Shown here: in pieces, positions 35,543 through 47,266 of the stretch
Position numbering within the stretch: position 1 is the first letter of the stretch
Layout of the letters: every line of letters starts with the position of its first letter
From: a virus
Lineage: Duplodnaviria; Heunggongvirae; Uroviricota; Caudoviricetes
Reading direction: 5' to 3' (one strand)
Virus record (IMG/VR): IMGVR_UViG_3300035034_002090
Span: 45,238 to 109,237 of that record
Length of the DNA: 64,000 bases
Translations under genes and position numbers: made by a program
Notes under the pieces: model-generated
Told to the model about the DNA's origin: nothing
Database searches by the model: none
What the model saw: the letters and a program-made list of their open reading frames with translations, nothing else

Positions 35543-35574
35543 GAAGAGGGGCCATCCGGCCCCTCTTCCTTTTT
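35543..35574 (+). terminator. intrinsic terminator
   Basis: GAAGAGGGGCC-ATCC-GGCCCCTCTTC-CTTTTT; lies just after the -1 frame stop. Confidence 0.85.
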
Positions 35575-35583
35575 ACCCTCCTA

Positions 35584-35607
35584 AAAGTTGTTTCAGAGTT
35601 CCGACCC
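35584..35607 (+). promoter_or_regulatory. candidate late promoter/operator, copy 1
   Basis: AAAGTTGTTTCAG-N6-GACCC; 98 nt between the 13-mer and the ATG at 35695. Confidence 0.55.
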
Positions 35608-35694: not shown

Positions 35695-37761
35695 ATGTCC
35701 CACAGAAAAGTTTTACATGACGGCTTCGCTCCGCTGAAGCTGAAAATTCAAGAGAGTACAGGCGACCGCCTGATCGCAACCGGCGAATTTGGCCGATGCG
35801 GAGACCCCACTGCTAACGGCAGGGTCTATCCGCGTAACCTGATGGAGCGTGAAGTCAAGCGCCTGTCGAACAAGCTCGAAGGCAGAGCGCTTTATGGGGA
35901 GCTGGACCATCCTGATGATGGCAAAACCCTCTTAAAACGAGTCAGCCACATTATCACGGGCCTAACCATCGAAAATGATGGTCGAGTTATTGGCACCCTA
36001 GAGGTCCTTGAGGATACCGAGAACGGACGACAGCTCAAAGGCTTGGTTGAGTCAGGAGTTGCCCTTGGTGTTAGCTCCAGAGGCTTGGGGTCCGTTAAGA
36101 AAATGAACGGCAAATCTGTGGTTCAAGAGGACTTTCGTCTTCTTACCTACGATGTCGTTGCCGATCCCGCCGTTGCAACAGCACAGCCAGATTACACCCG
36201 AGAAGAAGAAGAGTACGGCGACGAGGGAGAGGTCGTCCTTGCTGCCGAGTCAGATGACGCGGCCAGTAAAGAAGACGCTTCTTCAGAAGCTACCAGCGAG
36301 GATACCAAAATGGATCTTGATACTTTCAAGGCAGATAATCCTGAGATCGTATCTCAGCTCGAAGAGGACTTCCGAAGTAAAGCTGAGAGCCAAGAGGAAC
36401 CCGCTTCCACGGACAGCTTGTCAGAGCGCTTCCAGAAGGAGCTTCAGTCAGCAAGAGAAGAGATTGAGGCAAGATTTGCGGATGGCCTCGAACAGGCTAT
36501 CGCTGAGGCCCGAGAGGAAGAGCGCAATAAGCTAGCCAAGAAGGTTTCGGAGTCATCTGGCGAGGCTTCTGTCGAGAAGATTAAGGCGATTGCCGCTGAT
36601 CTGGTTACTCCAGACCAAATCTCGGAGAGCCACAAAAAGGAGCTTGGTGCTCTACAGAAGAGTATCTCCGAGCTTAGGTCTGAGACTGAATCAAAGGATC
36701 TTTACATCGAAGAGCTTCAGGATTCCCTTCTGGAGAGTGGGATGGCTTATGCGCTTCTCACACACATGCCACATATCTCTGAAGAGCATCAAGAGCACTT
36801 TGTCGAAATGGTAGGGGACCTATCCACCTACAATACTGTCGAAAGTCTTGAGAAGCGGGCTGATGCTGTCGCCGAGGAATTTAGGCGTACGGGACGATAC
36901 CTCGATAGTTCCGCATCTCTCTCTAAGAAGTTGGACGAAGCTCAGGCGAGGGTTGAAGAGGCTGAGGGCACGCAGGAAAGCCTACAACTTAGGCTTGAGG
37001 AATATGAAAGCGTTCTTCTGGATGCTCAGGATGAAATTACCTCCCTTAGAGAGTCCAATGAAGCCGCAGAATTGGAGCTAGAGTCTCTGGCCGAGGCCCT
37101 CGAAGAATCTGAGGACGAACTAATCGCTGAACGTGCAGAAGTAGATGAGCTTTATGAGCTTCTCGCGGAAGCTGATGAAGAGGTCGAAGAGTATGTCGAC
37201 ATGCTCGACGAAGCCAAAGAGGCCATTGCCCAGAGGGAGGTACTCATCGAGCAGCGTGACGACCTAATCATAAAGCAAAGAGACGCCATTAATGAGAGCG
37301 AGAAGATCGTATCCGATCTTCAGGTCCGCCTCGAAGAGACTGAGCTTGATAAATATAGGGTGGAGAGCGCCATCGGGGCACGCAATCCCAATGAGACAAT
37401 CCGACAGCTCAAAGAAGCGAATTCCTTCGAAGAGGTAGACAATCTTTTGGAAGGCCGCCGCAGCAACCGAACAGCTAAGCCAGCCCCGGTAGGATCCACA
37501 AGCAACACAGGCGCGGATCCTATTATGGAGGAAAACGTCCGAGACAGCATCATGAGTGTCGTCGAGGGTGAATTCCCTAAGGTCTCTGGGATTATCAAAA
37601 ATGGCTCCGAGGCGGGATTGATCTCAGAAAATGAAAAAAAATTGGAATCTGAAAATTCAAGACCAAACAATGGTCTTCGAAGCAACGGGACAGCTAGCCA
37701 AAAAGCCAGCATCCCGGGAATAGACCCCGCTACGATGAACCGAATTCTGAGCGGAAGTTAA
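35695..37761 (+). CDS. prohead protease (T4 gp21-like) fused to coiled-coil scaffold
   Basis: NGRVYP, GELDHP, VSHII, GVSSRGLGS, YDVVADP; long acidic coiled coil. Confidence 0.92.
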   Translation: MSHRKVLHDGFAPLKLKIQESTGDRLIATGEFGRCGDPTANGRVYPRNLMEREVKRLSNKLEGRALYGELDHPDDGKTLLKRVSHIITGLTIENDGRVIGTLEVLEDTENGRQLKGLVESGVALGVSSRGLGSVKKMNGKSVVQEDFRLLTYDVVADPAVATAQPDYTREEEEYGDEGEVVLAAESDDAASKEDASSEATSEDTKMDLDTFKADNPEIVSQLEEDFRSKAESQEEPASTDSLSERFQKELQSAREEIEARFADGLEQAIAEAREEERNKLAKKVSESSGEASVEKIKAIAADLVTPDQISESHKKELGALQKSISELRSETESKDLYIEELQDSLLESGMAYALLTHMPHISEEHQEHFVEMVGDLSTYNTVESLEKRADAVAEEFRRTGRYLDSSASLSKKLDEAQARVEEAEGTQESLQLRLEEYESVLLDAQDEITSLRESNEAAELELESLAEALEESEDELIAERAEVDELYELLAEADEEVEEYVDMLDEAKEAIAQREVLIEQRDDLIIKQRDAINESEKIVSDLQVRLEETELDKYRVESAIGARNPNETIRQLKEANSFEEVDNLLEGRRSNRTAKPAPVGSTSNTGADPIMEENVRDSIMSVVEGEFPKVSGIIKNGSEAGLISENEKKLESENSRPNNGLRSNGTASQKASIPGIDPATMNRILSGS

Positions 37762-37810: not shown

Positions 37811-39328
37811 ATGACGTACGAGGCTCGCAGCATGGAGATCCAAGAGGGACAGAACATTCACAACCGAAAGTTTGTGGATAGTCTGGAAGAGAAATGGGAT
37901 CCATATCTTCAGCATATTGATAAGTCGCCGAACCCGTTCGACTATCGTCGAAAAACCACCGCGATGGTGCTGGAAAACACCGTCAAGGAAATGCCGCGTC
38001 AACTCAGGCGCGACTCGATGCTTCAGGAGGCTGACGCCGCGTCGACTACGACCGGCGGAGTTGCCGACTACGCAAGCACGATTTTTCCTGTTCTCATGAG
38101 GGTCTTCCCGAACCTGATCGCACATGAGCTGGTCTCCATCCAGCCAATGGGCGGACCTGTAGGAGCGGTCTTTTACATGGAGTACAAGCATGGCACCAAC
38201 AAGGGTGCCACGACTAAGGGCTCCAACCTGATCGAGAACTTCGACGAGAACTACACCTCGTCTGAAGTCACCAACGAGCACATCGCGACCGGTAACGGCT
38301 CCGACTATGGTGGCGCTGGTTCTGCAATGACGGCTTCGCTGTCGTTCGCTCCCGTGTTTCCGCTGAACGCCGGACTTTCTTCTCCGGAATTCAAGGTTGT
38401 CATTCAGGAAGTTGACGCTTCCGGCAACGTGCAGCAGGAAGCTGTCGACGATGGGTCTGGTGGATTCACTGGAAACATCAGCTCTGGTTCAATCGACTAC
38501 GATACCGGTGCTATCACGAACTTTGTGTTCACGGCCGCGCCGTCGAACACCAACAAGATCGTTGCTTCGTACTTCTACGACATGGAGTCCAACTCCAACG
38601 TCCCGAAGGTCTCGCTCGACGTCTCCGTCAATGAGATCAAGGCGAAGTCTCGCAAGCTCAACGTCATCTGGAGTTCTGAGGCTGCTGACGACCTTCGCGC
38701 CCTGCACGGCATCGAAGGTGAAGCTCAGCTTCTCGCAGGTGTCTCGAACGAGATTGGTCTCGAAATCGATCGTGAGATCCTCAAGGACCTCCGACAGAAC
38801 GCCGACACCACTGACACGTTCGACCTCTCGACGCCGCCGACCGGTGTTGCGCAGATCGACTTCCTTCGTGAGCTGATCACCAAGATTCACCAGACTAGCT
38901 CCAAGATTCACAAGAAGTCGAAGCGTGCACAGGCGAACTGGATCGTCACTAGCCCGGAAGTCTCGGCGCTGCTGAACCAGTTCCAAGGCCACAGCGACTA
39001 CACCATGCTTGGATCGGCTCCTGACCGCTCACCCAGCTACGGTGAGATGACCTCCGATTACGGAATCTATCAGGTTGGACTACTGATGGGCCGCATGAAG
39101 GTCTACGTGGATCCTTTCTTCCAGAGCGATGAGCTTCTTCTGGGAATCAAGGGGAAAAACTACCTTGATGCAGGTATGGTATACTCTCCATATGTGCCGC
39201 TTCAGATGACTCAGACCTTCCTCGACCCCGAGGACCAGACCTACAAGAAGGGTCTTCGCACTAGGTACGCGAAGAAGCTTCTTCGTCCGTCGCACTACGG
39301 TCGAATCAAGGTGCTCGGTCTAGCGTAA
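37811..39328 (+). CDS. major capsid protein (T4 gp23-like) with inserted domain
   Basis: RVFPNLIAHELVSIQPMGGPVG, KSRKL, EIDREI, ANWIVTSP, YSPYVPL, TRY. Confidence 0.95.
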   Translation: MTYEARSMEIQEGQNIHNRKFVDSLEEKWDPYLQHIDKSPNPFDYRRKTTAMVLENTVKEMPRQLRRDSMLQEADAASTTTGGVADYASTIFPVLMRVFPNLIAHELVSIQPMGGPVGAVFYMEYKHGTNKGATTKGSNLIENFDENYTSSEVTNEHIATGNGSDYGGAGSAMTASLSFAPVFPLNAGLSSPEFKVVIQEVDASGNVQQEAVDDGSGGFTGNISSGSIDYDTGAITNFVFTAAPSNTNKIVASYFYDMESNSNVPKVSLDVSVNEIKAKSRKLNVIWSSEAADDLRALHGIEGEAQLLAGVSNEIGLEIDREILKDLRQNADTTDTFDLSTPPTGVAQIDFLRELITKIHQTSSKIHKKSKRAQANWIVTSPEVSALLNQFQGHSDYTMLGSAPDRSPSYGEMTSDYGIYQVGLLMGRMKVYVDPFFQSDELLLGIKGKNYLDAGMVYSPYVPLQMTQTFLDPEDQTYKKGLRTRYAKKLLRPSHYGRIKVLGLA

Positions 39329-40338: not shown

Positions 40339-41403
40339 ATGGCACTAATATTTGAGGCCCTTGAGCCAACCTTTGCACTCTCTGGCTCATCTCCGCAGTA
40401 CAGGGTTAGATTTTTCGAAGAAAGCACAGGCGACCTTACCGATCCTGACAACGTAGATGCTCTTGAAGTCATGGATTCAGGGGGCAACCTTCTACGCACC
40501 TTTATCCCGCCGGACATCGTTCAGGAATCCACAGGAGTATATCGTGTAGATGACGACGTAGTTGATGATCCGCAAGTCTTCTTCCTTAGATGGACTTACA
40601 CGGAAGGCGGAGATCAAAGGACAGTGTCCGTAGCCTACGAAGTCGTCGACAACCAGAGCGGCCAAGCAAAAAATGCACTGAAGGAATATGTGCTCAGTCG
40701 CCTTGGTAAAGGCGTAATGGTGGTCGAAATACCCGCAGGCACGCTAGACTTCTGCATCGACCAAGCCATGACATGGTACGCGATGCATGTCGGACAGACC
40801 AAGCGTGTTAGACTCAACATGGTTTCAGGCCAGCAGCGATACGACGTCGCAGAGGATTGCTATTACGTGGTTGATGTTGCTCTCCCCGGTAACATGACCC
40901 GCGTGTCCGAAGCCCTCGGTGTGTTCGGCGTCTATGGGTTCTCGCAACTAGGCATGGGGGACATACCTGTTGAGGATATTTTTGGGGGGTCTGGAACGCA
41001 GGGCTTTTATGGAGGACTTGTTCAGTCCTTGCAGTACGCCGAGATGGGTCGAAGGGTCCTAAGCAACGCTCCTTCTTGGGAGTGGCTGCAAATGTCCAAG
41101 AAGCTTGTCCTCTTCCCCCCGCCCGCGAACATTTCCAGCGAAATGGTCGTGGACTATGTATCCACCGAGATAGATCTTGCATCGATGAACCCGCAAGAGA
41201 AATACTTCATCCGCGAATACGTAACGGCCGAAGCAAAGGAAGCTCTTGGACGAATTCGAGGAAAGTACAGCGGTTATCCATCGGCTGAGGGAGAAAGGAT
41301 GCTAGATGCCGACACGCTGCTGGCTGAAGCTAGTGAAAGCAAGCGTACCCTCAATGAGAAGATAGGCTTTTATGCTCCGTCAGGTTGGATCATCACAGGG
41401 TAG
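40339..41403 (+). CDS. neck protein (T4 gp13-like) with N-terminal beta domain
   Basis: LKEYVLSRLG...VEI...IDQA; REYVTAEAKEALGRIRGKY. Confidence 0.82.
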   Translation: MALIFEALEPTFALSGSSPQYRVRFFEESTGDLTDPDNVDALEVMDSGGNLLRTFIPPDIVQESTGVYRVDDDVVDDPQVFFLRWTYTEGGDQRTVSVAYEVVDNQSGQAKNALKEYVLSRLGKGVMVVEIPAGTLDFCIDQAMTWYAMHVGQTKRVRLNMVSGQQRYDVAEDCYYVVDVALPGNMTRVSEALGVFGVYGFSQLGMGDIPVEDIFGGSGTQGFYGGLVQSLQYAEMGRRVLSNAPSWEWLQMSKKLVLFPPPANISSEMVVDYVSTEIDLASMNPQEKYFIREYVTAEAKEALGRIRGKYSGYPSAEGERMLDADTLLAEASESKRTLNEKIGFYAPSGWIITG

Positions 41404-41404
41404 A

Positions 41405-42154
41405 ATGATGGGTAAAAAAAGAGATAGGGTTATAGTTGCCGAGCAGAACGCTCGGGTGTTTTTTGTGAAGGTTGGTAAGTTGTGGGAGGAAGATACGTCT
41501 GCTTGGGCTTCACAACTGTTTCAGGCAGGTCAGAAGGTCCGGAGTATCCGTAAGGTAATGCATGAGTCTAGGGGCGTAATAAGAGTGGAATTCTCGGATC
41601 CCACGGACATGAGCAGGGCATGTCAACTACTGGAGGCAGACGCTGAGGCGACAGGCTCACCGGTGGAAGGCAAAACCTATAAGGTCACCAAGACCCTAAA
41701 GCTCCGACCTGCACAATCAGGGGATGAAACGCCCCTAGAGGTTACCAAGGGAGCCAGTCTGGTGTTCAAAGGTCAATCTCCTGACCAGTATCTGTTTGAC
41801 GTCAAAGGTGGAGATCGAGACGGCCGAACGGTGTCTGTTTCCATGGAGGAATGGGAGGACATGTCCTCTTCTCTTGAAGCGGAGTCAGATGCAAACGTTG
41901 ACAGCTCGAAAGAAGACGAAGAGGGCGAAGAGGGCGCTGATGAGGCTGACTCCGACAAGGACACCGGGGAAGACGAAAAAGACAGAGAGAAGCGACTCAA
42001 CACGCATCTAAGGGTCCGCCGATCTTTTCCTAAATTTCCTCAGAGAAAGAACCTGTCTGACTACCTAACCCCTGACGGAAAGGCTCTGGATAAGAAAGTT
42101 ATCGAGAAGCCTGAAGGCGGCGGCGGTGGCGGTGGCGGGTTCGGAGGGTTTTAA
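41405..42154 (+). CDS. hypothetical virion-associated protein
   Basis: Acidic linker, Gly-rich end, x-x-E-S/A sites. Confidence 0.65.
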   Translation: MMGKKRDRVIVAEQNARVFFVKVGKLWEEDTSAWASQLFQAGQKVRSIRKVMHESRGVIRVEFSDPTDMSRACQLLEADAEATGSPVEGKTYKVTKTLKLRPAQSGDETPLEVTKGASLVFKGQSPDQYLFDVKGGDRDGRTVSVSMEEWEDMSSSLEAESDANVDSSKEDEEGEEGADEADSDKDTGEDEKDREKRLNTHLRVRRSFPKFPQRKNLSDYLTPDGKALDKKVIEKPEGGGGGGGGFGGF

Positions 42155-42157
42155 TCC

Positions 42158-43081
42158 ATGGCTGGTCTCAAAAGTTCTCTCAAAAATATCGCCAAAAGCA
42201 TCAAGAAGAAAATCCCCTTTCTTCGCAAAGGACGTCACTCCAAGGGTAAGGAAGTTTCAGTTAAGCCCTTGTTGGCTTATTTCGTCGTCAAGCACCTCGA
42301 TGAATCTGGCAAGTCAATCACTAGGTCTGATGTTCAAAAAGCGTTTAGGGAAGCAACTAGGACGCTTCAGACCGCCGGATACATGAGGAAGGGTAAGCAT
42401 ACCCTGACTGATGTTGGCATCAAGGCCCTTGAGGCCGTTCGGCTGCGTGATGATTACAACGAGATACAGGATCGGTACGGTGCGATTCTAGCAATGATAA
42501 GAAGTGGGAAGCCCCGAACGTATAGTGAGTCAGATGCACCTATGTCTACCCCACTTCTCATGGAGGCGGGCGCTGACATCTCATCTAGCTCCACGATGGT
42601 TGCCATTTATCCTCCTTCCTACATAGCAGCGAAGGCATCATCTTACGCCGATGAGGAAATACCTGTTGACGATCTCCACGTGACCCTCGTCTATTTAGGG
42701 GAAACTGAACCTAGCGACTTCGACACTGTGGTCAAATGCGTGCAATCGTGTGCGCAGATGCTCGCGCCCGTGCGCGTGCGTGTGGCTGGCTCGGGGTGCT
42801 TTTACAATGATGAAAGCGCTGTGCGTCATTTTCTGATCGATTCTTCTGGGCTTGCTGAGGTGAGACGAAGAATTGCTGAGATGCTTTCTGATAACGGTCT
42901 AGTCACCCCATCTAAGTTTGGCTGGATTCCCCATATGACGCTAGGATACCACAAGGATCGTGAACTCCCCGACGATTGGGAGAAGGCCGCTGATGGTGAT
43001 TTTGATGAGTGGCTTTGCGATAATGTCTGGGTTGTGAGGGGGAATGACCACCGTGTGAGAGTTCCCCTTGGAGGTGTATAA
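42158..43081 (+). CDS. 2H phosphoesterase (Acb1/LigT-like) with basic N-terminal domain
   Basis: H174-V-T and H259-M-T motifs (LHVTLVYLG, PHMTLGY). Confidence 0.85.
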   Translation: MAGLKSSLKNIAKSIKKKIPFLRKGRHSKGKEVSVKPLLAYFVVKHLDESGKSITRSDVQKAFREATRTLQTAGYMRKGKHTLTDVGIKALEAVRLRDDYNEIQDRYGAILAMIRSGKPRTYSESDAPMSTPLLMEAGADISSSSTMVAIYPPSYIAAKASSYADEEIPVDDLHVTLVYLGETEPSDFDTVVKCVQSCAQMLAPVRVRVAGSGCFYNDESAVRHFLIDSSGLAEVRRRIAEMLSDNGLVTPSKFGWIPHMTLGYHKDRELPDDWEKAADGDFDEWLCDNVWVVRGNDHRVRVPLGGV

Positions 43082-43713
43082 TGGTGGATCAATCCCGAAG
43101 AATTCTTACCGCCTATCCGACTGAAATTATTTTTCAGATGAACATAGCCCGGGAGCACCTCTTTCACAGCAGCGTACAGCCGCGAGCTGGAGCACTGAGG
43201 CTTTCTGGATCTCCAAATAAGGACACCGTCAGCAATGGAACGGCCCGATCCGACAGGAACGTAGGCTCCGGAATAGACCCCATCGCAAACGTGGGGGCCA
43301 GAATGTGGTCGGCTGGCGTCGAGGAAGTTGATGATCTGTATGGCGAGCCTATTGGAGATGAGTTCACCAACCCTCCTATTTCCACTGTTTGCGTCCTGAA
43401 GTTCAACGAAGAGTCTGATCGCCAGCTATCGGTCGAGGCTTTCGGTCAGAAGTTTGAGAACAGGGCCAATGTAATAATTCCAGTCATACATCATTTGGAG
43501 AACGATTATCCCGCTCCAAAAGAAGGGGATATGATGGAATTTTGGGCGGAGTCTTGGCAGGAGTTTGGCATCTTCTACAACGTCACGAAAGTGAACCGAG
43601 CGGGCTTTATAAATGGAACCTCATACCACACCGAATGGAAGCTTGAGATCACTCGTAACGAAGAATACGTGCCCGCCCGAAGACTATTAGGGAAGAGCAT
43701 ACATAACCAGTGA
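43081..43713 (+). CDS. neck/head-completion protein (T4 gp14-like)
   Basis: DDLYGEP...F, P.EGD, YNVTKV; position near gp13-like gene. Confidence 0.6.
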   Translation: MVDQSRRILTAYPTEIIFQMNIAREHLFHSSVQPRAGALRLSGSPNKDTVSNGTARSDRNVGSGIDPIANVGARMWSAGVEEVDDLYGEPIGDEFTNPPISTVCVLKFNEESDRQLSVEAFGQKFENRANVIIPVIHHLENDYPAPKEGDMMEFWAESWQEFGIFYNVTKVNRAGFINGTSYHTEWKLEITRNEEYVPARRLLGKSIHNQ

Positions 43714-43721
43714 GATAACCT

Positions 43722-44111
43722 ATGCCTATAGATGCCAAAAGTGTTGCCGACCTCGTTAAAAACAAGGTCGTATTCGGATGCGCCTCATGCAAGAAGATGC
43801 ATCAAGCGCTTAATAAGGGGATGGCCGGGTGTCAGATTAAAGAGTGCGGGTCTCCTTTGAGCGGAGGTACTTTTGAGCAATACGAAGGTCCTATGTCTCC
43901 TGAGTTCTGGCCCAAAGTCTGCTGGGCTTGTGGCGTGCCATCCGTAAGGGCTTTTCATGTGATTAAATCTGCACGCACATTTGGCGTGTGTGACGAACAC
44001 AATGAGCTTCATAGCGCTGGGTTTTCGAAGGATGAGGTTCTTTTGTTGGGCTCTCCCCCAAAAAATACCCAACACAATTTGATTCAGGCGCTCATTGATG
44101 ATGAAAATTAG
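43722..44111 (+). CDS. Cys-rich zinc-finger hypothetical protein
   Basis: CxxC..H, C...C, CxxC, CxxH. Confidence 0.65.
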   Translation: MPIDAKSVADLVKNKVVFGCASCKKMHQALNKGMAGCQIKECGSPLSGGTFEQYEGPMSPEFWPKVCWACGVPSVRAFHVIKSARTFGVCDEHNELHSAGFSKDEVLLLGSPPKNTQHNLIQALIDDEN

Positions 44112-44139
44112 ATGCGACGGTTATTCTCGTGAGGCTGCT

Positions 44140-44901
44140 ATGTCTTTTGCTGGAGAACACAATTCTGAAATCATCTCCGAGAAGGAGAAGAGTAGCTTTG
44201 GTCGAGACTTGGCAATCAAGACCGCAAAGGCTGCTGCGACAACGGCCGCTATTGCAGGAGCTACCGCAATTGCTGGCACTGCCTCGAAGAGAATTGGCAC
44301 GAGCATTGGGGATAAGATAGCTGACTTTGTGACGGGCTCTGGCCGAAAAAGTAATAAGCGACGCGGTAGCCGCCGCAATCGCAAGGATGATGATAGTCGT
44401 CGACGTCATCGCAATAAGAAAACCAAACGTACCGGTAGGCGCGGGAGAGGAAAAATGAGTAGACGAAACGAGAGTTCATCCGTAGAGGGACAGCTCAGGC
44501 AGCAGAACAAGGAGCTTAAAGAAGCTCTGCGGCAGACTGGCGTAGCTTTGGTCCTCTCCAATCATCTTCCAAAGGTTGAGGAATCTAAGCATCGAAGCTT
44601 TGTATCCTCTCTTCGCTCGTATAACGACTTCGAGAGCATGGTCGAATTCGACGAGTATGTCTCTGGAGAGATTCAGGGCTTCCTCAACGAAGACGAAGAT
44701 AAGGCTGACGAAGAGGCTAATGAAGAGCCTGTTGAAGAGTCCGCAGAAGGCTCCGAAGAGAGCACTGTTGAGGAAGGTAAAGATGCTGATGCTGGTGCCC
44801 TAGAAGAGAGTGCACCCGCTCAGCCATCGAATGACCCTCTCGGCCTTCTGGGCGGCGTGAACGGATACATGTACGAGCGGATTGTTTTTCCGAAGGCGTA
44901 A
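44140..44901 (+). CDS. putative internal head protein with scaffold-like domain
   Basis: Ala-rich helix, Arg-rich block, domain paralogous to the scaffold. Confidence 0.65.
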   Translation: MSFAGEHNSEIISEKEKSSFGRDLAIKTAKAAATTAAIAGATAIAGTASKRIGTSIGDKIADFVTGSGRKSNKRRGSRRNRKDDDSRRRHRNKKTKRTGRRGRGKMSRRNESSSVEGQLRQQNKELKEALRQTGVALVLSNHLPKVEESKHRSFVSSLRSYNDFESMVEFDEYVSGEIQGFLNEDEDKADEEANEEPVEESAEGSEESTVEEGKDADAGALEESAPAQPSNDPLGLLGGVNGYMYERIVFPKA

Positions 44902-44908
44902 GACCACA

Positions 44909-45271
44909 ATGAAAGACGTTGAGAGATATTCTGAAGAGGCCGAGCTTAGGGCGGAGAATACTGCGCTAAAGAAGGCGCTTAGGCGTACCAGCATGGCACT
45001 TGCCTTGTCTGAAGCCTTCATGTCTCTCGACGAGAGTCTGCATCATCGACTCGTTGTAAGGTTAGAGCCTCAAGACAGGTTTGAGAGCGTGGATGATTTC
45101 CGATCTCACGTAAAGTCTGTTGCATCTCGGGTGCTTAGAGAAGATGAGCGCCCACCCTCTCAAATAGAGCAGCCTATTCCGGGAACTCAGAGCGAGGCCG
45201 AGGAACGTCCCTTGGCTCGCTCTGAGCTTTTCGAGCGGCTGTGCCCTTCCCTAACCCATGATCTCGGCTGA
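44909..45271 (+). CDS. small scaffold-domain paralog
   Basis: Aligns without gaps to ORF 44140 and the scaffold. Confidence 0.65.
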   Translation: MKDVERYSEEAELRAENTALKKALRRTSMALALSEAFMSLDESLHHRLVVRLEPQDRFESVDDFRSHVKSVASRVLREDERPPSQIEQPIPGTQSEAEERPLARSELFERLCPSLTHDLG

Positions 45272-46701: not shown

Positions 46702-47244
46702 ATGGCTAAGAAAGAAATGTGGAAGGTTGTAGGCGCGGGACCCGAAAGGCTTCGTCTGGCAAACGGCGATACTGTCGTGGTCTCTAGGCTTTCGGATCCT
46801 TTTGAACCGGCTAGGGACTCTCTTTTTAGATCCCTGAAGGATACAGGAAGACTTAAGATGGTCATGGTCGACGATGGTCTAGACGACCCCGTCGAGTCAC
46901 CTGAGCCCTTTGAGCCTGAAGATGAAACCAGTGAGCCGGAGGTCGAAGAAGCCTCAGAAGAGACTAAGGCCGTAGAGATAGACGAGGAAGAAGACGTCGT
47001 CATCGGCGACACCGAGGACGCCTCTTGGCCGGAACCAGACGTCGCGCCACTACTCGTATCTGATCTTGGCCTCACTTCGAGAATTGAATCGGCTTTGCTT
47101 GAGAGCGGCGTAGATACCGTTGAGGCTTTATCTGAGCTTTCTGCCGAAGAGCTTCTTTTGATCGACGGCATAGGGGAAGGATCCATACGCGACATCGATG
47201 ACGCGCTGAGACAAATGGATCTTTCTCTACGAATTGATGAGTAA
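46702..47244 (+). CDS. acidic protein with C-terminal RNA polymerase alpha-CTD/NusA-type HhH domain
   Basis: DLGLTSRIESALLESGVDTVEALSELSAEELLLIDGIGEGSIRDIDDAL. Confidence 0.75.
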   Translation: MAKKEMWKVVGAGPERLRLANGDTVVVSRLSDPFEPARDSLFRSLKDTGRLKMVMVDDGLDDPVESPEPFEPEDETSEPEVEEASEETKAVEIDEEEDVVIGDTEDASWPEPDVAPLLVSDLGLTSRIESALLESGVDTVEALSELSAEELLLIDGIGEGSIRDIDDALRQMDLSLRIDE

Positions 47245-47266
47245 AGTTGTTTCAGGTCCGAGACCC
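47243..47266 (+). promoter_or_regulatory. candidate late promoter/operator, copy 2
   Basis: AAAGTTGTTTCAG-N6-GACCC; 98 nt between the 13-mer and the ATG at 47354. Confidence 0.55.

What the first reader, a model, noticed from the sequence alone, without database searches (positions are those of the whole stretch)
42158..43081. Acb1-like 2H phosphoesterase among head/neck genes, possibly packaged and protease-matured
Seen: two HxT motifs 85 aa apart in the C-terminal domain, a basic N-terminal domain, and an L-M-E-A site (aa 134-137) right before the catalytic domain. The gene sits between the gp13- and gp14-like genes. Established: T4 Acb1 (gp57B) is a 2H phosphoesterase that destroys CBASS cyclic nucleotides, and T4 gp21 cleaves head proteins after L/I-x-E. 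Inference: the N-terminus targets the enzyme to the prohead and the mature domain is injected with the DNA. This would be a virion-delivered counter-defence (CBASS/type III CRISPR signals) or an RNA end-processing enzyme.
Basis: partly seen in the sequence, partly recalled or inferred. Interest (0 to 1): 0.75.

Follow-up and report, generated by a model that had tools for sequence, protein, structure and literature searches.

The report
Head-operon 2H phosphoesterase, likely packaged
A large uncultured T4-like phage carries, inside its head/neck gene block, an intact 2H phosphoesterase that is closer to bacterial LigT/ThpR than to the anti-CBASS enzyme Acb1, and comparison with relatives suggests (but does not prove) that it is loaded into the capsid, cut by the head protease and injected with the DNA.

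Summary
ORF 42158-43081 (+, 307 aa) has HVT (174-176) and HMT (259-261), a basic N-terminal half and L-M-E-A at 134-137.

The C-terminal domain is a confident 2H phosphoesterase (Pfam PF13563, E 5e-16; model pLDDT about 96). It is not Acb1-like in the family sense:
- The Acb1 model gives no hit.
- The profile E-value against Acb1 structures is 0.14, against 1e-15 to 1e-17 for the best LigT/ThpR-type chains.
- Fold Z is 9.6 for Acb1 and 16-18 for LigT/ThpR.

Its nearest relatives are the phage "polyvalent protein" 2H domains. These are fused to the C-terminus of portals, or to MuF, prohead proteases and ADP-ribosyltransferases, and were already predicted in 2017 and 2022 to be packaged and injected.

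The packaging and cleavage idea gains real but indirect support:
- The gene keeps its place in the late head/neck block in three diverged phages.
- The phage protease belongs to the T4 gp21 family.
- The capsid protein has L-Q-E|A where maturation is expected.
- All five proteins with this N-domain have a single L-x-E in the disordered linker, 7-10 residues before the enzyme domain.

The substrate is unknown. I read this as a new variant of a known, computationally predicted kind. Interest is moderate.

The parts
42158..43081 (+). Whole gene: 307-aa two-domain protein (P0001). TAA stop at 43079-43081 overlaps the ATG of the next gene by 1 nt.
42143..42148 (+). GGAGGG Shine-Dalgarno, 9 nt before the ATG. 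The upstream ORF stops at 42152-42154, so the genes are tightly coupled.
   Evidence: read directly
42158..42259 (+). aa 1-34: basic amphipathic helix (aa 2-18; aa 1-40 have pI 11.4), then a disordered basic stretch.
42263..42502 (+). aa 36-115: conserved small helical N-domain (motif PLLAY...AF...R.LQ..G...H..T..G; four helices plus a short hairpin). Family unknown.
42503..42589 (+). aa 116-144: disordered linker. pLDDT is below 50 over aa 117-137.
42557..42568 (+). L134-M-E136|A137: candidate cleavage site for the gp21-type prohead protease. E136 is invariant in the four-sequence alignment of N-domains and linkers.
42590..43078 (+). aa 145-307: 2H phosphoesterase domain of the LigT/ThpR-like, phage polyvalent-protein clade.
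42677..42685 (+). First catalytic motif, H174-V-T176.
42932..42940 (+). Second catalytic motif, H259-M-T261.
35695..37761 (+). Prohead protease, 688 aa. Peptidase_S77 (T4 gp21 family) domain at aa 39-163. Long C-terminal scaffold-like part with 27 [LI]xE sites.
38021..38032 (+). L-Q-E|A (aa 84-87) in the gp23-like major capsid protein. It lies 2 residues before similarity to mature T4 gp23* begins.
40339..41403 (+). gp13-like neck protein.
41372..42154 (+). Conserved 260-aa ORF directly upstream of the 2H gene: acidic middle, Gly-rich C-terminus, conserved [LV]xE at aa 86-88. In a relative it carries the N-terminal module that P0006, P0007 and P0151 carry on the 2H protein.
43081..43713 (+). 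Conserved 210-aa ORF, probably gp14-like neck protein (lead-level evidence only).
35584..35596 (+). First of the only two copies of AAAGTTGTTTCAG in the window (the other is at 47243-47255). Together they bracket the protease-to-ORF180 block that holds the 2H gene. A strong terminator hairpin at 35543-35568 precedes it.

Best explanation
The gene encodes a two-domain protein made from the late head/neck transcription unit of a T4-like phage.

The C-terminal domain (aa 145-307) is an active, metal-independent 2H phosphoesterase. It belongs to the LigT/ThpR-like clade that phages attach to portal, MuF, prohead-protease and ADP-ribosyltransferase domains.

Most likely the protein is incorporated into the prohead. 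There the phage's gp21-family (S77) protease would cut it after Glu136 in the disordered linker, freeing the acidic 171-aa enzyme. The enzyme would then enter the cell with the DNA, so that it is present before any phage gene is expressed.

In the cell it would hydrolyse a host molecule with a 2',3'-cyclic, 2'-5' or cyclic-oligonucleotide phosphodiester. That could be a defence signal, or RNA ends made by defence RNases.

Shown: the ORF, the motifs, the fold, the clade, the synteny, the protease family and the conserved L-x-E. Inferred: packaging, cleavage, delivery and substrate.
For: Enzyme:
- PF13563 E 4.9e-16.
- AF2 model pLDDT about 96 for aa 145-307.
- VIA Z 18.0 (rmsd 2.5, 160 aligned) to 1iuh and Z 17.8 to drCPDase 5h7e.
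- H174, T176, H259 and T261 are invariant in 59 homologues.

Clade:
- Of the 67 nearest representatives, 12 carry portal domains, 6 Phage_Mu_F, 3-4 prohead proteases, and several ART domains.
- In six checked portal fusions the 2H domain is at the extreme C-terminus of the portal protein.
- Actinophage genomes have it inside 'capsid maturation protease/MuF' proteins.
- The orthologue P0151 is ART-PolyVal (E 1.2e-5, below cut-off) + linker module + N-domain + 2H.

Late structural context:
- The order MCP, ORF186, gp13..., ORF260, 2H, ORF210..., sheath is conserved in two diverged relatives, where the 2H protein is only 35% identical.
- Spacings of 3 nt and -1 nt to the neighbours, each with a Shine-Dalgarno.
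- The block is bracketed by the only two copies of a 13-mer.

Processing:
- The protease is Peptidase_S77, E 1.6e-15.
- The MCP has L-Q-E|A 2 residues before similarity to mature gp23* starts.
- Core-like ORFs are rich in LxE.
- The linker at aa 117-137 has pLDDT below 50.
- Each of P0001, P0002, P0006 and P0007 has exactly one [LI]xE in an otherwise unconserved linker, 7-10 residues before strand 1. Shuffle p is about 0.2 each, and 0.0015 jointly if independent. P0151 also has one there.
- P0151 and P0006 also have I-R-E|G at the ART/linker junction or 9 aa from the N-terminus.

Neighbours look like head cargo:
- ORF268 (Arg-rich) and ORF129b are paralogues sharing a segment with the protease's scaffold part.

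RNA repair partners:
- No RNA ligase, RtcB, KptA or PNK3P in the 173-kb record.

Logic (inference): an enzyme against early host signalling is of little use if it is only made late, unless it is carried into the next cell.
Against: - There is no direct evidence of virion presence or cleavage. The phage is known only from a metagenome.
- The N-domain is a conserved folded domain found only together with this 2H domain. It therefore looks like a functional partner of the enzyme rather than a general targeting tag.
- P0001 has no short N-terminal T4-type targeting peptide ending in LxE. Its first LxE is at aa 47-49.
- The closest solo homologue (P0003, 44% identity) lies among small non-structural genes in a region with no recognised structural genes. 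So the enzyme itself does not need packaging.
- The four or five linker sequences are related, so the joint p-value is optimistic.
- gp21-type specificity is inferred from family membership, not shown for this protease.
- The record is only 84% complete, so absence of RNA-repair genes is weak evidence.
Confidence: 0.45

Rival explanations
1. A late-expressed cytoplasmic enzyme that is never packaged. The gene would be a passenger inserted in the variable stretch between the gp13-like and gp14-like genes. Its product would work in the infected cell: healing 2',3'-cyclic phosphate RNA ends left by host anticodon or defence RNases, trimming RNA like Usb1, or removing nucleotide signals late in infection. 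The N-domain would bind the nucleic-acid or nucleotide substrate.
For: - Sequence and fold are nearest to ThpR/LigT RNA 2',3'-cyclic phosphodiesterases.
- The N-domain occurs only with this 2H domain and has weak winged-helix-like Atlas matches to Mrr_N and DtxR-type clusters.
- The closest solo homologue, P0003, sits in a region with no recognised structural genes, about 4.5 kb from a PNK3P gene.
- Gene content between gp13 and gp14 varies among relatives. That is typical of insertion hot spots.
Against: - No RNA ligase, RtcB, KptA or PNK3P was found in the record.
- Iyer et al. 2017 (PMC5512222, section 20) report that this version of 2H never associates with RNA ligases.
- A conserved L-x-E in the linker and junction sites in P0151 and P0006 are unexplained by this model.
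- The nearest relatives are fused to capsid-internal proteins.
- Position and translational coupling within the structural block are conserved at 35% identity.
Confidence: 0.3
2. A true Acb1 orthologue: a dedicated anti-CBASS nuclease that cleaves 3'3'-cGAMP, cAAA and similar signals in the same way as T4 gp57B.
For: It shares the 2H superfamily fold and the two His motifs. The fold match to FBB1 Acb1 7t26 is Z 9.6 (rmsd 3.6, 130 aligned) and to the Burkholderia phage BCSR5 Acb1 9q2g is Z 10.5. Two of the 67 relatives also hit the Pfam Acb1 model, best E 2.2e-7.
Against: - Pfam Acb1 PF23474 gives no hit on the protein at E<=0.1, nor on the whole record at E<=1.
- The family profile scores E 0.14 and 0.19 against Acb1 chains, against 9e-17 to 7e-15 for the best LigT/ThpR-type chains.
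- Fold Z is 16-18 for LigT/ThpR, 14-15 for Usb1 and AKAP18 and 13 for viral 2',5'-PDEs. All are above Acb1.
- The protein ends right after the last strand, so no obvious counterpart of the Acb1 C-terminal lid is seen.
Confidence: 0.05
3. A structural neck or collar component. The N-terminal part would anchor on the gp13/gp14 neck, and the 2H domain would be displayed on the particle or be a relic with no enzymatic role in infection.
For: The gene lies between the gp13-like and probable gp14-like genes and is coupled to them. This position is conserved in relatives.
Against: - Catalytic residues are invariant across 59 homologues.
- An external 2H enzyme has no evident substrate.
- Relatives fuse the domain to capsid-internal parts (portal C-terminus, MuF, protease), not to neck or fibre proteins.
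- The 2H protein evolves faster (35% identity) than the neck proteins (40-52%).
Confidence: 0.07

Closest known systems
2H phosphoesterase domains of phage 'polyvalent proteins' and their solo counterparts (Iyer, Burroughs, Anand, de Souza, Aravind 2017, PMC5512222 section 20; Iyer et al. 2022, PMC9503650 section 3.4.5)
   Same: It belongs to the same clade by similarity. The nearest relatives are fused to portal, MuF, prohead protease and ART-PolyVal domains. There is no associated RNA ligase. The predicted role is the same: packaged in the head, injected, acting as an RNase or degrading host nucleotide signals.
   Different: - Here it is a separate gene, not a fusion to a portal or MuF.
- It has its own conserved N-domain, seen in only five proteins.
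- It sits between the gp13-like and gp14-like genes of a T4-like myovirus.
- It has a candidate gp21-type L-x-E site at the domain junction.
- The Pfam 2H-SAK model PF22547 is hit only weakly (E 0.023, below cut-off).
- The published role is a computational prediction and has not been shown experimentally.
ThpR/LigT RNA 2',3'-cyclic phosphodiesterase (E. coli LigT 5ldi, D. radiodurans CPDase 5h7e, T. thermophilus 1iuh, P. horikoshii 1vdx)
   Same: These are the best fold and sequence matches: Z 16-18 with rmsd 2.3-2.7 over 148-161 residues, and profile E from 9e-17 (1vdx) to 4e-5 (E. coli LigT). They share the HxT motifs.
   Different: - It scores below the NCBIfam equivalog cut-off (TIGR02258: 42.6 against 65.7 bits).
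- Identity is only 17-22%.
- It has an extra 144-aa N-terminal region.
- It is phage-encoded within a structural operon.
Acb1 (T4 gp57B; Erwinia phage FBB1 Acb1, PDB 7t26/7t27; Hobbs et al. 2022, PMC9117128)
   Same: It is a phage-encoded enzyme of the 2H fold with two catalytic histidines and could be a counter-defence enzyme.
   Different: - It is not detected by the Acb1 Pfam model.
- Z is only 9.6.
- There is no evident C-terminal lid.
- Acb1 is a compact protein of about 150 aa, and Hobbs et al. do not describe it as virion-packaged.
T4 head-packaged, gp21-processed proteins (internal proteins IPI-III with a capsid-targeting sequence; Alt ADP-ribosyltransferase). From my own knowledge of the T4 literature; not checked in a paper here.
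   Same: - The phage has a gp21-family protease.
- An L-x-E|A site is present in the cargo candidate and in the capsid protein.
- Relatives P0151 and P0007 put an ART-like domain, as in Alt, on the same polypeptide. P0006 has I-R-E|G nine residues from its N-terminus, the length of a T4 targeting peptide.
   Different: P0001 itself lacks a short N-terminal targeting peptide. If it is cleaved, a 136-aa folded N-terminal part would be separated, not a 10-aa tag. Nothing has been shown experimentally.
Vibriophage ICP3 Gp15 ejectosome protein that inhibits the CBASS effector CapV (bioRxiv 10.1101/2025.07.23.666291)
   Same: It sets a precedent for a virion-delivered protein that blocks a nucleotide-signalling defence.
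   Different: Gp15 acts stoichiometrically on the effector and does not degrade the signal. There is no sequence or fold relation.

Membership tests
2H phosphoesterase superfamily | Two H-x-T/S motifs on the two lobes of an internally duplicated fold | tested here: met
   HVT at 174-176 and HMT at 259-261. All four residues are invariant in 59 homologues.
2H phosphoesterase superfamily | Profile match above the curated cut-off, and the 2H fold | tested here: met
   PF13563 59.6 bits against a cut-off of 27; PF02834 29.1 against 23.3. Model pLDDT is about 96, and Z is 18.0 to 1iuh.
Acb1 (anti-CBASS nuclease, Pfam PF23474) | Match to the Acb1 family model | tested here: not met
   No hit at E<=0.1 on the protein, and none at E<=1 on the whole 173-kb record.
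Acb1 (anti-CBASS nuclease, Pfam PF23474) | Acb1 is the nearest relative among solved 2H structures | tested here: not met
   Profile E is 0.14 (7t26) and 0.19 (9q2g), against 9e-17 to 7e-15 for the best LigT/ThpR-type chains. Z is 9.6-10.5 against 16-18.
Acb1 (anti-CBASS nuclease, Pfam PF23474) | Aromatic base-stacking residues and a C-terminal lid closing over the cyclic dinucleotide (Hobbs 2022) | tested here: inconclusive
   The protein ends 4 residues after the last modelled strand, and the aligned range stops at 296-298. No residue-level superposition was made.
Acb1 (anti-CBASS nuclease, Pfam PF23474) | Cleaves 3'3'-cGAMP and cyclic trinucleotides | not testable with these tools
   Needs an enzyme assay.
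ThpR/LigT RNA 2',3'-cyclic phosphodiesterase (NCBIfam TIGR02258 equivalog) | Score above the equivalog cut-off | tested here: not met
   42.6 bits against a cut-off of 65.7. 58 of 59 relatives hit the model, with a best E of 6.6e-17.
Polyvalent-protein-type phage 2H domain (Iyer et al. 2017) | Closest relatives fused to portal, MuF or other polyvalent-protein domains, with no linked RNA ligase | tested here: met
   12 portal, 6 MuF, 3-4 prohead protease and ART domains among the 67 nearest representatives. Architectures. ART-PolyVal in the orthologue P0151 (below cut-off). No RNA ligase or RtcB in the record.
Polyvalent-protein-type phage 2H domain (Iyer et al. 2017) | Match to Pfam 2H-SAK (PF22547) | tested here: not met
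   E 0.023, 15.4 bits against a cut-off of 27.
T4-type prohead cargo processed by the gp21 protease | Phage encodes a gp21-family (Peptidase_S77) protease | tested here: met
   PF03420 E 1.6e-15 and PHROG 207 E 2e-46 for ORF 35695-37761.
T4-type prohead cargo processed by the gp21 protease | Accessible, conserved (L/I)-x-E site | tested here: met
   LME at 134-136 lies in a linker with pLDDT below 50. There is one [LI]xE at the same place in all five homologues.
T4-type prohead cargo processed by the gp21 protease | Short N-terminal capsid-targeting peptide ending in a cleavage site | tested here: not met
   The first [LI]xE in P0001 is at aa 47-49, inside the folded N-domain. P0006 does have I-R-E|G at aa 7-10.
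T4-type prohead cargo processed by the gp21 protease | Present in virions as the processed form | not testable with these tools
   The phage is uncultured and no proteome is available.

The most novel reading that the evidence does not exclude
The stretch between the gp13-like and gp14-like genes of this T4-like lineage is a cargo island. Its products are loaded into the prohead and cut at (L/I)-x-E junctions by the gp21-type protease. These products are the ORF260 family, the 2H enzyme and, in relatives, an Alt-like ADP-ribosyltransferase on the same polypeptide. The phage would thus inject a ready-made phosphoesterase that destroys host cyclic-oligonucleotide or 2'-5' signals before any phage gene is expressed. 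That would be the first enzymatic, signal-degrading counter-defence delivered by the virion.
Probability: 0.3. Interest if true: 0.7.

Novelty: new variant of a known kind. Interest (0 to 1): 0.5.

Why it matters
The known enzymes that degrade defence signals (Acb1, Apyc1) are not described as virion-packaged, so they must first be made after infection begins. A pre-made enzyme carried in the capsid would act from the first second of infection, before CBASS, type III CRISPR or similar alarms can build up.

That such packaged 2H enzymes exist has been predicted from domain fusions since 2017 but has never been shown.

This locus offers a simple test case. It is a stand-alone gene with a clear domain boundary, a candidate protease site conserved in five homologues, and a recognisable gp21-family protease in the same operon.

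It also warns against naming every phage 2H protein 'Acb1-like'. This one is much nearer to LigT/ThpR.

Tried and rejected
1. Close relatives:
- The word-based protein search found only the protein itself.
- The IMG/VR scan found none.
- Cultured-phage tblastn found only the 2H domain at under 35% identity, mostly in actinophages.
- Homologues came only from the exhaustive HMMER search.

2. N-domain fold:
- A separate AF2 model had mean pLDDT 64, and 75-83 over aa 35-115.
- Searched against 48,161 PDB representatives it gave a best Z of 4.9 and nothing at Z>=5.
- My winged-helix guess therefore rests only on weak Atlas matches, TM 0.3-0.4 by query. It is not claimed.
- The Pfam Dak2 hit (E 1.6e-4 on the isolated N-terminal region, below cut-off) was disregarded.

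3. The N-domain as a general targeting module was rejected as unsupported. A profile search found it only in five proteins, all with the 2H domain, and never alone.

4. gp14 identity of ORF210: Pfam, PHROGs, NCBIfam and a PDB profile search all gave nothing. Only Atlas leads remain.

5. The N-terminal domain of P0007 looked ART-like by eye but gave no Pfam or NCBIfam hit. Only P0151 gave a sub-threshold ART-PolyVal hit.

6. RNA-repair partners in the record:
- No hit for PF09414, PF01139 or PF08645.
- The PF09511 search was uninformative because its controls were silent.
- PF01885 gave only a 14-bit hit.

7. Literature searches for virion proteomics of LigT-like phage proteins, and for the BCSR5 phosphodiesterase, found nothing.

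8. Complex prediction, the sequencing-run tools and a 2H-domain phylogeny were not used. No defined partner or expression question would have moved the odds.
Full report
**What is there**

The window lies in a 173-kb IMG/VR virus record, estimated 84% complete. ORF 42158-43081 (+) encodes 307 aa.
- The N-terminal half is basic (aa 1-136, pI 10.15) and the C-terminal half is acidic (pI 4.66).
- A GGAGGG Shine-Dalgarno sits 9 nt before the ATG.
- The upstream ORF stops 3 nt before the ATG. The TAA stop overlaps the next gene's ATG by one base.

**Context**

The surrounding genes form a T4-like late module:
- terminase (29486)
- portal (31487)
- two core-like ORFs
- a 688-aa protease-scaffold protein with a Peptidase_S77 (gp21 family) domain (35695)
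- a gp23-like capsid protein (37772)
- a gp13-like neck protein (40339)
- ORF260, the 2H gene and ORF210
- several conserved ORFs
- an RNAP alpha-CTD-like ORF (46702)
- sheath (47354) and tube

It brackets the protease-to-ORF180 block. A strong terminator precedes the first copy. So the 2H gene is probably part of one late unit; this is an inference.

The gene is not directly next to gp13, because ORF260 lies between them. ORF210 is gp14-like only by Atlas leads.

**The enzyme domain**

The evidence that it is a 2H phosphoesterase:
- Pfam PF13563 E 4.9e-16, plus LigT_PEase and AKAP7_NLS above their cut-offs.
- An AF2 model built on a 59-sequence alignment has pLDDT about 96 for aa 145-307.

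VIA-align fold comparison:

| Group | Z |
|---|---|
| LigT/ThpR-type enzymes | 16-18 (for example 1iuh: 18.0, rmsd 2.5, 160 aligned) |
| Usb1 and AKAP18 | 14-15 |
| Rotavirus VP3 and MHV ns2 2',5'-phosphodiesterases | about 13 |
| Acb1 chains | 10.5 (9q2g), 9.6 (7t26) |

Sequence evidence agrees:
- A profile of the family scores 9e-17 to 7e-15 against the best archaeal and bacterial LigT/ThpR-type chains, but 0.14 and 0.19 against Acb1 chains.
- The Pfam Acb1 model finds nothing in the protein or in the whole record.
- The protein is also below the ThpR equivalog cut-off.

So it is a 2H enzyme of a LigT-like clade. It is a family member of neither Acb1 nor cellular ThpR.

**The clade**

The exhaustive HMMER search found 1,602 relatives at E<=1e-3.
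- Of the 67 nearest that I scanned, 12 carry phage portal domains, 6 Phage_Mu_F and 3-4 prohead proteases. Others carry ART-PolyVal, Arr-like ART, Zeta toxin and similar domains.
- In six portal fusions that I checked, the 2H domain is at the extreme C-terminus of the portal protein.
- In cultured actinophages the domain sits inside 'capsid maturation protease/MuF' proteins: Zitch gp20 and YDN12 gp12.

This is the 2H version described by Iyer et al. 2017 (PMC5512222, section 20).
- They noted that it and its 'solo counterparts' never accompany RNA ligases.
- They proposed an RNase role or degradation of defence-activating nucleotides.

Iyer et al. 2022 (PMC9503650) state that the MuF and portal fusions suggest packaging and injection. 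The general idea is therefore already published, but only as a prediction.

**Homologues with the same architecture**

Only five proteins share the N-domain, and all of them carry the 2H domain: P0001, P0002, P0006, P0007 and P0151.
- P0002 and P0006 lie in the same place in related phages. The order there is MCP, ORF186 homologue, gp13 (PF26809), a variable set of ORFs including the ORF260 homologue, the 2H gene, the ORF210 homologue, and so on to the sheath.
- The 2H protein is 35% identical, compared with 40-52% for the neck proteins.
- P0151 adds a sub-threshold ART-PolyVal domain at its N-terminus. P0007 adds an N-terminal domain that gave no family hit.
- P0006, P0007 and P0151 also carry an N-terminal module of about 80 aa. 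The same module is found at the N-terminus of the ORF260 homologue in L004 (E about 1e-11). Modules are therefore exchanged between these two adjacent genes.

**The cleavage idea**

- The linker at aa 117-137 is predicted to be disordered.
- Each of four homologues has exactly one [LI]xE in its otherwise unconserved linker, 7-10 residues before strand 1: LME, LTE, LRE and LAE.
- Shuffling each linker gives a site in 18-21% of trials, so the joint chance is 0.0015 if the sequences are independent. They are related, so the real figure is higher. P0151 also has LRE there.
- P0151 has only five [LI]xE in 636 aa. Two of them fall at domain junctions: I-R-E|G after the ART domain and L-R-E before the 2H domain.
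- P0006 starts with nine residues ending in I-R-E|G.
- The capsid protein has L-Q-E|A at aa 84-87, two residues before similarity to mature T4 gp23* begins.
- The core-like ORF387 has 11 such sites and the protease's C-terminal part has 27.
- ORF260 has a conserved [LV]xE at aa 86-88.
- Downstream, ORF268 (with a very Arg-rich segment) and ORF129b are paralogues that share a segment with the protease's scaffold part.

That T4 gp21 cuts after (L/I)-x-E is my own knowledge of the T4 literature. That this protease shares the specificity is inferred from family membership.

**What weakens the story**

- The N-domain (aa 36-115) is a conserved folded unit, not a short tag. It is never seen on other cargo and has no significant PDB match.
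- P0001 has no N-proximal LxE.
- The closest solo homologue, P0003, lies among small genes with no recognised structural genes, in a region that also holds an Acb2/Tad1-hairpin-like gene and a PNK3P gene.
- Nothing here shows virion presence, cleavage or substrate.

**Verdict**

| Claim | My estimate |
|---|---|
| The enzyme call is right | more than 0.9 |
| 'Acb1-like' as a family assignment | rejected |
| Packaged | about 0.5-0.55 |
| Cleaved at E136\|A137 | about 0.4 |

The target could be a nucleotide signal or RNA ends, and this remains open. I rate the finding a new variant of a known, computationally predicted kind, of moderate interest.

Noticed in passing
window 44095-45271: ORF268 and ORF129b are paralogues (E 2e-10). 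Both share a segment with aa 339-429 of the protease-scaffold protein (E 3e-4). ORF268 also has an extremely Arg/Lys-rich stretch, like a DNA-binding internal head protein.
   Followed up: partly
window 41372-42154; L004:4209-5360; L005:6328-7083: ORF260 is a conserved family with an acidic middle, a Gly-rich C-terminus ending in F, and a conserved [LV]xE at aa 86-88. The L004 homologue carries an N-terminal module of about 80 aa (EGLLD...GPDPR...DRFxWSYP). In P0006, P0007 and P0151 the same module sits on the 2H protein instead.
   Followed up: partly
window 41403-43081 compared with L004:2802-6405 and L005:4231-9860: Gene content between the gp13-like and gp14-like genes varies among the three related phages, with 2, 5 and 5 ORFs. 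It looks like a hot spot for accessory or cargo genes within the neck module.
   Followed up: partly
window 35695-37761: The prohead protease (S77 domain, aa 39-163) is fused to a glutamate-rich C-terminal part of about 450 aa with 27 [LI]xE sites. This looks like a protease-scaffold fusion that would digest itself.
   Followed up: no
window 46702-47244: An acidic 180-aa protein just upstream of the sheath gene has an RNA polymerase alpha-CTD / HhH domain at its C-terminus (PF03118, E 1.2e-7). It is conserved in L005.
   Followed up: no
L008:3623-3991 and L008:2073-2582: The phage that carries the closest solo 2H homologue (P0003) also has a weak Acb2/Tad1-hairpin-like gene and a PNK3P gene within 5 kb, among small genes with no recognised structural genes. 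This could be a counter-defence or RNA-repair island.
   Followed up: no
L010:510-5299: P0005 (2H domain plus a Gly/Ala-rich C-terminal extension) lies four genes upstream of a 590-aa Peptidase_M23 protein, which is followed two genes later by an 811-aa protein. The layout resembles internal or ejection protein modules of podoviruses.
   Followed up: no
G000:C1:169539-169634 (outside the window; locus L012): A weak, sub-threshold KptA/Tpt1 (PF01885) hit of 14 bits lies in a 447-aa ORF near the end of the record. It might be an ART-fold protein.
   Followed up: no
window 35584-35596 and 47243-47255: The 13-mer AAAGTTGTTTCAG occurs exactly twice in 64 kb (0.06 expected). One copy lies ahead of the protease gene and the other ahead of the sheath gene. 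It is a likely late promoter or regulatory element.
   Followed up: partly
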